Assembly: GCA_951406725.2 (NCBI GenBank)
Contig: OX597822.1
Span: forward strand, 82,336,001-82,400,000
Direction: 5' to 3'
DNA: 64,000 nt
Origin: Octopus vulgaris
Taxonomy: Eukaryota
Shown: one piece after another, positions 4,286 through 58,480 of the stretch
How the letters are laid out: every line of letters begins with the position of its first letter
How positions within the stretch are numbered: the first letter of the stretch is position 1
The notes under the pieces: model-generated
Databases searched by the model: none
What the model was told of the DNA's origin: nothing
The model's input: the letters and a program-made list of their open reading frames with translations, nothing else
Program-made: the position numbers and the translations under genes

Positions 4286-4342
4286 AGAAGGTTGAAAAGG
4301 AACACATGAAGGTAGAAAATGCTAAAATAATTTTATACATTT

Positions 4343-4378
4343 CAGTACCGGTTTCGGTCATTGAGACTTTTTCAACTG
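4343..4378 (-). ncRNA. Minimal type I hammerhead ribozyme motif, U3:A8 core variant
   Basis: Minus strand: CAG TTGAAAA aGTC tcaat GACc GAAA CCGG TA CTG (stem I CAG/CTG, palindromic helix III, GUA site). Confidence 0.55.
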
Positions 4379-4556
4379 TAAGTATGGAAAAGAATTAAAT
4401 TTTGGAAAAATTAACAGAAAAGTTTCTTAAAAGAATCTTTGCATAGTATTTAAATAAAAGGGGCATTTTCCTTGTTTCTGCCTGTCCCTGTCTCTCTTGT
4501 TTAAGCCATTTAAAAACACAAAAACTGTTAGATACACTTCAAAATTTAAATTTAAT

Positions 4557-4605
4557 TTGCCAAAACATTTTCGTTGCTTTGAGACTGCAACCTGATTACT
4601 GACAA
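4557..4605 (-). ncRNA. Hammerhead-like motif, G3:C8 core variant (G5A here, probably inactive)
   Basis: Minus strand: TTGTCA GTAATCA gGTTGC agtctcaaa GCAAC GAAA ATGT TT TGGCAA. Confidence 0.45.
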
Positions 4606-5033
4606 TATATATATATATATATGTAAATAATGAAGTTCGAAAATGCTGCTATATTATACAATTTTTAATTTTTATATATACATTATAACATGTTTCAGTT
4701 CCTGAAATGAACCTTATCAAAAAAAGTTATATATAAAAAAAGATAGTTCATGCTATCAATCACAAGAAATTCATTTATAATACACAACGGTGTCAGACAT
4801 CATAAAGTTCATATATATAGTTTGAAGTGAGTTCGTTCATGCTATATGTTTAAAGTGCATGATGCAGCGGTTCACGGTGGTGACATGCATCCAATACAAA
4901 AAACAGATCAAAGCGGCGATATGTAGTCAATACAAAAAACTGATGTTCCTGAAAGAGAGAGGAATTCATTTTTACCTTGAGCAACTGTGGTGTTCGCTGG
5001 ATGATTCTGGCGAATCTTGTGAATTGTTCAGGT

Positions 5034-5298
5034 TTTATAACACTGGTCAGTCCAGCGTAACGTGACGTCATCAACGTTTTGACCAATCGTTTCGTTAGGT
5101 GGCTTGGTCAAGCAGAACGGGACGTCATCAACGTTCTGACCAATCGTGACCTATCGCTGTATTATAACTGCCTCTTGTCTGTATCCTGTTTTGACCAATC
5201 GTTTCGTTAGGTGGCTTAGTCAAGCAGAACGGGACGTCATCAAAATTCTGACCAATCACGACTTATAGCTGTATTAGATCTGCCCCTTGTCTGTACCT
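5034..5298 (-). promoter_or_regulatory. CpG-rich promoter-like array: 2 x ~112-bp direct repeat with CRE and CCAAT boxes plus TATA
   Basis: Units 5076-5187 and 5188-~5298; TGACGTCA at 5063-5070, two more GACGTCA, four GACCAATC; TATAAAA on minus near 5033-5039. Confidence 0.5.
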
Positions 5299-5314
5299 GT
5301 TATATATATATATA

Positions 5315-41411: not shown

Positions 41412-41855
41412 TTTGTAGTAAAGATTGTTTGCCAACATAACATGGCAGTCCTGGTTTAGGACAAATGTTGCTGTAATTTAACCCTAGGAGATATCATCTC
41501 CAGCTGACTATACGACATGATCTGTGTCCTTACATTTTTTTAATAATTTTCTAATTTATAAATCAGTGACTAGTTGTCACTGTGAAAACTATATATTTCG
41601 AACGGGAATTTGGTAGCGCCACCTCTAGCTGAACAATTATTCTGTGCTGATGAAGGGGAAATAACCCAGAAATCACGATACACAGATATTGTTTTGAGCT
41701 GAGTGGGGGTGTTAGATTCCCTTGTTCAAAAACATAAGGACACAGATCGTGTTGTATAGCCAGCTGGAGACAATGTCTCCTGGGGATAAATTACAGCAAC
41801 ATTCGTCCTAAACCAGGACTGCCATGTTATGTTGGCAAACAATCTTTACTACGAA
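41412..41855 (+). mobile_element. Element with ~130-bp inverted arms enclosing a hammerhead
   Basis: 41412-~41540 is the reverse complement of ~41725-41855. Confidence 0.8.
41641..41686 (+). ncRNA. Type I hammerhead ribozyme motif
   Basis: TCTGTG CTGATGA aGGG gaaataa CCC a GAAA TCACGA TA CACAGA; stem I extendable by aacaat/attgtt. Confidence 0.7.
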
Positions 41856-58348: not shown

Positions 58349-58391
58349 CCACTACAATTGTTTCTTGTCTTGATCGACAATCTTCAGGTGG
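58349..58391 (-). ncRNA. Identical hammerhead motif on the minus strand (left arm of the palindrome)
   Basis: Exact reverse complement of 58438-58480. Confidence 0.85.
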
Positions 58392-58437
58392 ACTTCCAAT
58401 AAGTCAGTTTCAAATTTGAAACTGACTTATTGGAAGT

Positions 58438-58480
58438 CCACCTGAAGATTGTCGATCAAGACAAGAAACAATTGTAGTGG
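58438..58480 (+). ncRNA. Intact minimal type I hammerhead ribozyme motif
   Basis: CCAC CTGAAGA TTGTC gatcaa GACAA GAAA CAATTG TA GTGG; predicted cleavage after GUA at 58476. Confidence 0.85.

What the first reader, a model, noticed from the sequence alone, without database searches (positions are those of the whole stretch)
4343..4720. Compensatory variation of the hammerhead 3:8 core pair (U3:A8 twice, G3:C8 once)
Seen: cores TTGAAAA, TTGATAA and GTAATCA in place of CTGANGA, and each keeps positions 3 and 8 complementary. Established: C3:G8 is a tertiary Watson-Crick pair and compensatory swaps can retain activity. Inference: covariation in three unrelated elements suggests selection on folding rather than random decay. 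Strict CUGANGA searches would miss these families.
Basis: partly seen in the sequence, partly recalled or inferred. Interest (0 to 1): 0.7.

Follow-up and report, generated by a model that had tools for sequence, protein, structure and literature searches.

The report
Swapped-core hammerheads in Penelope-like elements
Three neighbouring jumping-gene fragments each carry a predicted self-cutting hammerhead RNA whose paired core letters differ from the textbook pair as a fixed family trait, and this genome's element families use all four possible Watson-Crick pairs there, which likely reflects selection on the fold; cutting itself is untested.

Summary
The three minus-strand motifs are minimal type I hammerheads in three high-copy repeats. 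With positions 3 and 8 left free, the variant pair is the family state: U3:A8 in 94 of 100 listed copies (E1) and 98 of 100 (E2), G3:C8 in 95 of 100 (E3); C3:G8 in none. E1 and E2 are terminal repeats (pLTRs) of related Neptune-type Penelope-like elements in one well-supported clade, so their U3:A8 is probably one inherited change, not two. E3 is a ~215-bp element with no ORF found; the window copy has decayed (G5A). A further family fixes A3:U8 (99 of 100), so all four Watson-Crick pairs occur. U3:A8 is published, including in Penelope-like elements; I found no natural G3:C8 or A3:U8 family in print, but could not read Lünse 2017. This scan noted G3:C8 and U3:A8 families in this genome before. 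Against routine cutting: 1 of 46 E3 copies starts at the predicted cut, and a sister family spread with A13C.

The parts
4343..4378 (-). E1 minimal type I hammerhead, U3:A8; core 4375-4369; predicted cut between 4346 and 4345 (GUA)
   Evidence: coordinates; family state; dimer fold
4290..4503 (-). E1: 3' part of the pLTR of a Neptune-type Penelope-like family (5'-truncated here; ends approximate)
   Evidence: 4678 first-look candidates, matches over 4503-4309; RT/GIY-YIG ORF remnants upstream of other copies L010, L013, L020, L022, L029, L030
4557..4605 (-). E3 minimal type I hammerhead, G3:C8, extra G between 9 and 10.1; core 4599-4593; this copy has G5A; predicted cut between 4563 and 4562 (UUU)
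4504..4605 (-). E3: fragment of a ~215-bp element with fixed 5' end, 5' inversions and a variable 3' tail; joins E1 at about 4503-4500; no ORF found
   Evidence: (3432 exact matches to a 32-mer)
4681..4724 (-). E2 minimal type I hammerhead, U3:A8; core 4720-4714; predicted cut between 4687 and 4686 (GUU); matches the family majority
4621..5302 (-). E2: solo ~680-bp pLTR of a young Neptune-type Penelope-like family, flanked by TA repeats
   Evidence: copies 95-100% identical; pLTR-ORF-pLTR in L097, L098; RVT_1 and GIY-YIG matches
4606..4620 (.). (TA)n tract between E2 and E3, the likely shared insertion target that explains the clustering
   Evidence: sequence; TA flanks in most copies; link to Neptune targeting is a published hypothesis

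Best explanation
The three motifs are minimal type I hammerhead folds in the terminal repeats of three Penelope-like element families whose 3:8 pair is fixed as U:A, U:A and G:C, and they likely fold as dimers and would cut slowly, probably with help from the element's protein. Shown: family states, link of E1 and E2 to RT plus GIY-YIG ORFs, shared ancestry of E1 and E2, an A3:U8 family, palindromic stem III. Established: position 8 acts through its 2'-OH and must pair with position 3; the C3G/G8C double mutant partly restores cutting, also in a Penelope-like element. Inferred: lineages that break the pair are lost over time, so only Watson-Crick states are fixed; at least three pair changes occurred (to U:A, A:U, G:C). 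Inferred: most insertions are copied from uncut RNA, so cutting would serve a rarer step such as trimming tandem read-through transcripts. The three motifs sit together because the elements likely share a (TA)n target, not because they work as a unit.
For: Family states with 3 and 8 free, first 100 rows listed of 482, 2148, 537 and 230 matches: 94 U:A, 95 G:C, 98 U:A, 99 A:U; no C:G. 12 of 12 multi-locus families in 1.62 Mb are Watson-Crick: C:G 5, U:A 5, G:C 1, A:U 1; the reversed control gave 5 hits and no family. Of 17 non-Watson-Crick hits, 7 are lone decayed copies of Watson-Crick families, 7 have at most one other copy, and 3 lie in other repeats. U3:A8 persists across lineages whose proteins are only about 55-65% identical, while stems and loops change. 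A U3:A8 family (L123, L265-L293) shares E3's stem II, extra G and palindrome, with weak similarity downstream (42 of 2000 shuffles reach the score). Predicted dimers of E1 pair the palindromes. Literature: PMC11167929 (double mutant partly rescues; ribozyme needs protein), PMC4209133 (dimers, low activity).
Against: No cleavage data. Only 1 of 46 E3 copies begins at the predicted cut; 30 begin 41-61 nt upstream, 13 begin 34 nt upstream (one rearranged form) and 2 begin 6-18 nt upstream. A U3:A8 sister family of E1 with 2022 matches has C at position 13 in 96 of 100 listed rows and A in none, so a near-invariant core letter was lost without stopping spread. In PMC11167929, ribozyme-dead mutants did not affect insertion in vitro and no RNA reads ended at the cut. 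Copies within a family share one ancestor, so the high percentages show the founder state, not selection. U3:A8 needs only two transitions toward A/T in an AT-rich genome. E3 has no linked ORF in 98 loci searched, so its class rests on architecture. Six of the 12 families were over-sampled by my own searches.
Confidence: 0.62

Rival explanations
1. The fold, including the 3:8 pair, is kept as a structural element (protein binding, template folding or RNA stability), and cutting is weak or dispensable in these lineages.
For: A13C fixed in a 2022-match family; copies start upstream of the cut; ribozyme mutants do not affect insertion in vitro; published minimal hammerheads cut poorly.
Against: The 3:8 pair belongs to the active conformation (established knowledge), and G5, A6, G12, A14, A15.1:U16.1 and a non-G at 17 are kept in the representatives of the 12 families shown, which suits catalysis better than binding alone.
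Confidence: 0.27
2. The states are founder accidents: each family descends from one master, U3:A8 arose by AT-biased drift, and the pairing of G3:C8 and A3:U8 is coincidence.
For: E1 and E2 are not independent; only about three independent changes are known; I followed up candidates that already looked paired.
Against: G:C and A:U each need two transversions from either C:G or U:A; three of three changed states being Watson-Crick has a rough chance of (3/15)^3 = 0.008 if states were random; no convincing unpaired family turned up.
Confidence: 0.09
3. The three motifs are decayed copies of canonical CUGANGA hammerheads, or chance look-alikes.
For: The window copies show damage (G5A in E3, 10.1:11.1 mismatch in E1); Rfam listed no hammerhead among the 150 of 165 matches shown.
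Against: No C3:G8 row among 100, 100, 100 and 72 listed rows; Rfam also missed the canonical pair at 58387/58442.
Confidence: 0.02

Closest known systems
U3-A8 minimal hammerheads of Cercyon Penelope-like elements in Schistosoma mansoni (Cervera and de la Pena 2014, PMC4209133; read parts 1-2 of 4 of the text, part 2 of 3 of the supplement and search passages of part 1)
   Same: Type I, in pLTRs, palindromic stem III, U3:A8; the supplement lists the same cores UUGAUAA and UUGAAAA; an extra nucleotide between 9 and 10.1 as in E3; U17 triplets are common.
   Different: Neptune-type elements here (CX4CxxC plus CCHH), short stems, mostly no extra nucleotide in E1/E2. The rows I saw hold C3:G8, U3:A8 and one U3:G8, but no G3:C8 or A3:U8.
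Natural U3-A8 hammerheads (Perreault et al. 2011, PMC3088659; passages read)
   Same: C3:G8 covaries to U3:A8 in nature.
   Different: Only U3:A8 is named in the passages read; those ribozymes are not minimal dimeric pLTR forms.
PAc Poseidon element hammerhead of Anolis (Frangieh et al. 2024, PMC11167929; part 1 of 4 and passages read)
   Same: pLTR hammerhead of a Penelope-like element; engineered C3G/G8C partly restores cutting; uncut RNA is the main template; 3' tail signature like E3's.
   Different: There G3:C8 is a laboratory mutant; here it is the natural state of more than 2000 copies. Different clade.
Animal non-LTR retrozymes (PMC7229834, search listing only; bioRxiv 10.64898/2026.07.22.740005, listing and passages)
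   Same: Short non-autonomous hammerhead-bearing repeats derived from Penelope-like elements, as E3 may be.
   Different: E3 is mostly dispersed with 5' inversions, tandem in only one locus seen, and has a minimal rather than canonical type I fold.

Membership tests
Minimal type I hammerhead ribozyme | Core U4 G5 A6, A9, G12 A13 A14, A15.1:U16.1, H17 | tested here: met
   Family majorities of E1, E2, E3; not met by the window's E3 copy (G5A)
Minimal type I hammerhead ribozyme | Canonical C3:G8 letters | tested here: not met
   U3:A8 or G3:C8 instead; U3:A8 is an accepted natural variant
Minimal type I hammerhead ribozyme | Watson-Crick pair between 3 and 8 | tested here: met
   94, 98 and 95 of 100 listed rows
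Minimal type I hammerhead ribozyme | Stems I and II and a palindromic stem III that allows a dimer | tested here: met
   stem I of E2 is weak and its free-energy fold is not hammerhead-shaped
Minimal type I hammerhead ribozyme | Site-specific self-cleavage | not testable with these tools
   Only contigs were available; copy starts do not mark the cut
Penelope-like element, Neptune-type (E1, E2) | ORF with RT and C-terminal GIY-YIG next to the pLTR | tested here: met
   E2: (RVT_1 just under its cut-off, GIY-YIG over); E1: broken ORFs in 6 of 29 other loci
Penelope-like element, Neptune-type (E1, E2) | CX2-5CxxC linker and CCHH motif | tested here: met
   CX4CxxC and CCHH in the translations; definition from PMC8557442. 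Nematis shares the linker
Penelope-like element, Neptune-type (E1, E2) | Placement among reference Neptune RTs in a tree | not tested
   My trees hold only this genome's proteins
Penelope-like element (E3) | Linked RT/GIY-YIG ORF | tested here: not met
   No match beyond one 24-residue fragment in 98 loci of E3 and its look-alike family; a rare full-length copy is not excluded
Penelope-like element (E3) | 5' inverted copies, one-sided 3' tail, microsatellite targets | tested here: met
   signature described in PMC8557442

The most novel reading that the evidence does not exclude
One animal genome's Penelope-like elements have fixed all four Watson-Crick pairs at hammerhead 3:8, with G3:C8 and A3:U8 as active natural ribozymes not yet described, plus a spreading A13C core. 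The pair identity would tune how slowly a protein-assisted ribozyme cuts, and CUGANGA-based searches would undercount hammerheads in animal retroelements.
Probability: 0.4. Interest if true: 0.6.

Novelty: new variant of a known kind. Interest (0 to 1): 0.42.

Why it matters
The 3:8 pair has been swapped mostly in the laboratory. A set of natural, high-copy families with C:G, U:A, G:C and A:U in one genome is a ready-made series for asking what the pair identity costs, and whether Penelope-like elements need cutting at all, which is an open question. It also affects annotation: in the evenly spaced 800-kb sample, 6 of 16 descriptor hits had a swapped Watson-Crick pair.

Tried and rejected
Rfam scan: no hammerhead among the 150 of 165 matches shown; uninformative, since canonical copies in the window were also missed. 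RNA evidence: no RNA holder listed; contigs of four runs from other organisms hold these repeats with no listed change at positions 3 or 8 of E1 and E2 where covered, a weak hint that cannot show cutting. Copy starts as a mark of cleavage: negative for E3; not tested without bias for E1 or E2. Search for E3's autonomous partner: none. L092 first looked like E1's ORF but has its own pLTR. The first tree held a chimeric L211 row and was rebuilt; the L167 row there still combines two pieces and its place is unsure. The C3:G8 label on L187 rests on one decayed copy. The candidate filter had an offset error and its hammerhead lists were not used. Papers not held: Lünse et al. 2017 (PMC5785218) and Przybilski and Hammann 2007 (PMC1986816); I saw only their citations. 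Print searches for natural G3:C8 or A3:U8 found none; supplements of Perreault 2011 and parts 1 and 3 of the Cervera supplement were not read in full and may bear on novelty.

Full report
Observation. The window lies in a 2.8-Gb genome, called octopus-like in earlier notes of this scan (not checked by me). On the minus strand the three 7-mers start at 4375 (E1), 4720 (E2) and 4599 (E3). Each is followed by a hairpin, GAAA, a short palindrome and a stem I partner, the layout of a minimal type I hammerhead. Predicted cuts fall at 4346/4345, 4687/4686 and 4563/4562. A descriptor with positions 3 and 8 free gave 16 hits in 800 kb of evenly spaced stretches and 0 in the reversed DNA: C:G 8, U:A 4, G:C 2, unpaired 2.

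Family states. Each motif sits in its own repeat. Pattern searches left 3 and 8 free; the tool lists the first 100 rows. E1: 482 matches; 94 U:A, 4 G:A, 1 U:G, 1 U:C. E2: 537 matches; 98 U:A, 1 U:G, 1 U:U. E3: 2148 matches; 95 G:C, 3 G:U, 1 C:C, 1 U:C, and G5 in 97. Among all 72 E3 copies with U7, like the window's, 59 are G:C and 3 have A5. No row had C3:G8. The patterns fix the flanks, so a canonical subfamily with other flanks would be missed; the looser scan showed no C3:G8 copy in these three clusters.

What the repeats are. E2 (about 4621-5302) is a solo pLTR of a young family; other copies follow an ORF with RT and GIY-YIG matches, and L097 and L098 show pLTR-ORF-pLTR with a 4.7-kb period. 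The protein has the CX4CxxC linker and CCHH motif that PMC8557442 assigns to Neptune and Nematis. E1 follows broken ORFs of the same type in 6 of 29 other loci, about 55-65% identical to E2's in the main stretches. E3 is about 215 bp with a fixed 5' end some 20 nt before the core, frequent 5' inversions and a one-sided tail; no ORF was found in 98 loci. All three favour TA repeats, which likely explains why they are stacked here.

Independence. In a tree of 20 endonuclease-region proteins from this genome, E1, E2 and two further U3:A8 lineages form one clade (96/99), and their pLTRs share a motif after the ribozyme (1 of 2000 shuffles). U3:A8 in E1 and E2 is thus probably inherited. The same survey turned up a family with A3:U8: 230 matches at up to one mismatch, 99 of 100 listed rows A:U, with a related copy whose stem I differs by a compensatory pair. 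Across 1.62 Mb of fetched DNA, 12 of 12 families seen in two or more loci were Watson-Crick (C:G 5, U:A 5, G:C 1, A:U 1), against 5 control hits and no control family; six of these were enriched by my own searches. The 17 unpaired hits were decayed members of paired families (7), had at most one other copy (7), or lay in other repeats (3: one in a microsatellite, two with weak stems that I did not follow). A U3:A8 family resembling E3 in stem II, extra G and palindrome may be its sister (42 of 2000 shuffles). At least three changes of the pair, all to Watson-Crick states and two needing double transversions, are the real evidence for selection.

Mechanism. By established knowledge position 8 works through its 2'-OH and is held by pairing with position 3; a review passage gives a 10^5-fold loss for G8C and partial rescue by C3G (PMC8495972). 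In a Penelope-like element the same double mutant partly restored cutting, the ribozyme needed the element's protein, dead mutants still inserted in vitro, and no RNA reads ended at the cut (PMC11167929). Minimal hammerheads cut weakly and only as dimers (PMC4209133). My data fit this: predicted E1 dimers pair through the palindrome, and only 1 of 46 E3 copies, chosen by a sequence downstream of the cut, begins at the cut. I therefore infer a slow, dimer- and protein-dependent ribozyme acting on a minority of transcripts (0.62). The main rival is a fold kept for structure with little cutting (0.27); a sister family of E1 with 2022 matches and C13 in 96 of 100 rows supports it.

Novelty. U3:A8 is known in nature and in Penelope-like elements, about 1,300 hits in S. 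mansoni, with the same two cores as E1 and E2. Seven searches found no natural G3:C8 or A3:U8 family, but the large survey by Lünse et al. was not available and may hold them. Earlier notes of this scan report a G3:C8 family and a U3:A8 family in this genome and both swaps in a phage; these are unchecked notes. Verdict: a new variant of a known kind, interest 0.42.

Noticed in passing
L204 and L214-L223 (G000:C4:868553 and others): Neptune-type family whose pLTR hammerhead has A3:U8 and a two-pair stem II; 230 matches, 99 of 100 listed rows A:U.
   Followed up: yes
L199, L205 (pattern search): U3:A8 family with 2022 matches in which A13 of the GAAA block is C in 96 of 100 listed rows and U in 4; a fixed change at a near-invariant core position.
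   Followed up: partly
L123:1708-1845; L265-L293: Short element with U3:A8, an extra G after position 9 and a stem II like E3's; frequent 5' inversions; no ORF found; possible sister of E3.
   Followed up: partly
window 58350-58480: Head-to-head inverted pair of canonical C3:G8 minimal hammerheads (cores at 58387 minus and 58442 plus), typical of a Penelope-like 5' inversion.
   Followed up: no
window 41640-41690: A single canonical CUGAUGA hammerhead-like motif on the plus strand.
   Followed up: no
G000, GIY-YIG search: Many copies share a 781-residue open frame; the two translated (L190, L195) belong to the E2 lineage, which suggests recent activity. L097 also has a 479-residue upstream frame, either a separate ORF or a frameshifted N-terminus.
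   Followed up: no
L232, L252, L260, L099, L101, L138 and others: One rearranged inverted E3 pair recurs with near-identical flanks at many sites (13 of 46 copies), so it was amplified as cargo of a larger repeat.
   Followed up: no
window 4356 in runs X18 and X20: Loose ends from other organisms show G at 10.1 of the E1 stem II where this genome mostly has A, a possible G:C to A:U change at 10.1:11.1.
   Followed up: no
L201 (G000:C30:5221180): A GIY-YIG match unlike the retroelement ones, probably an exon of a host nuclease gene (identity not tested).
   Followed up: no
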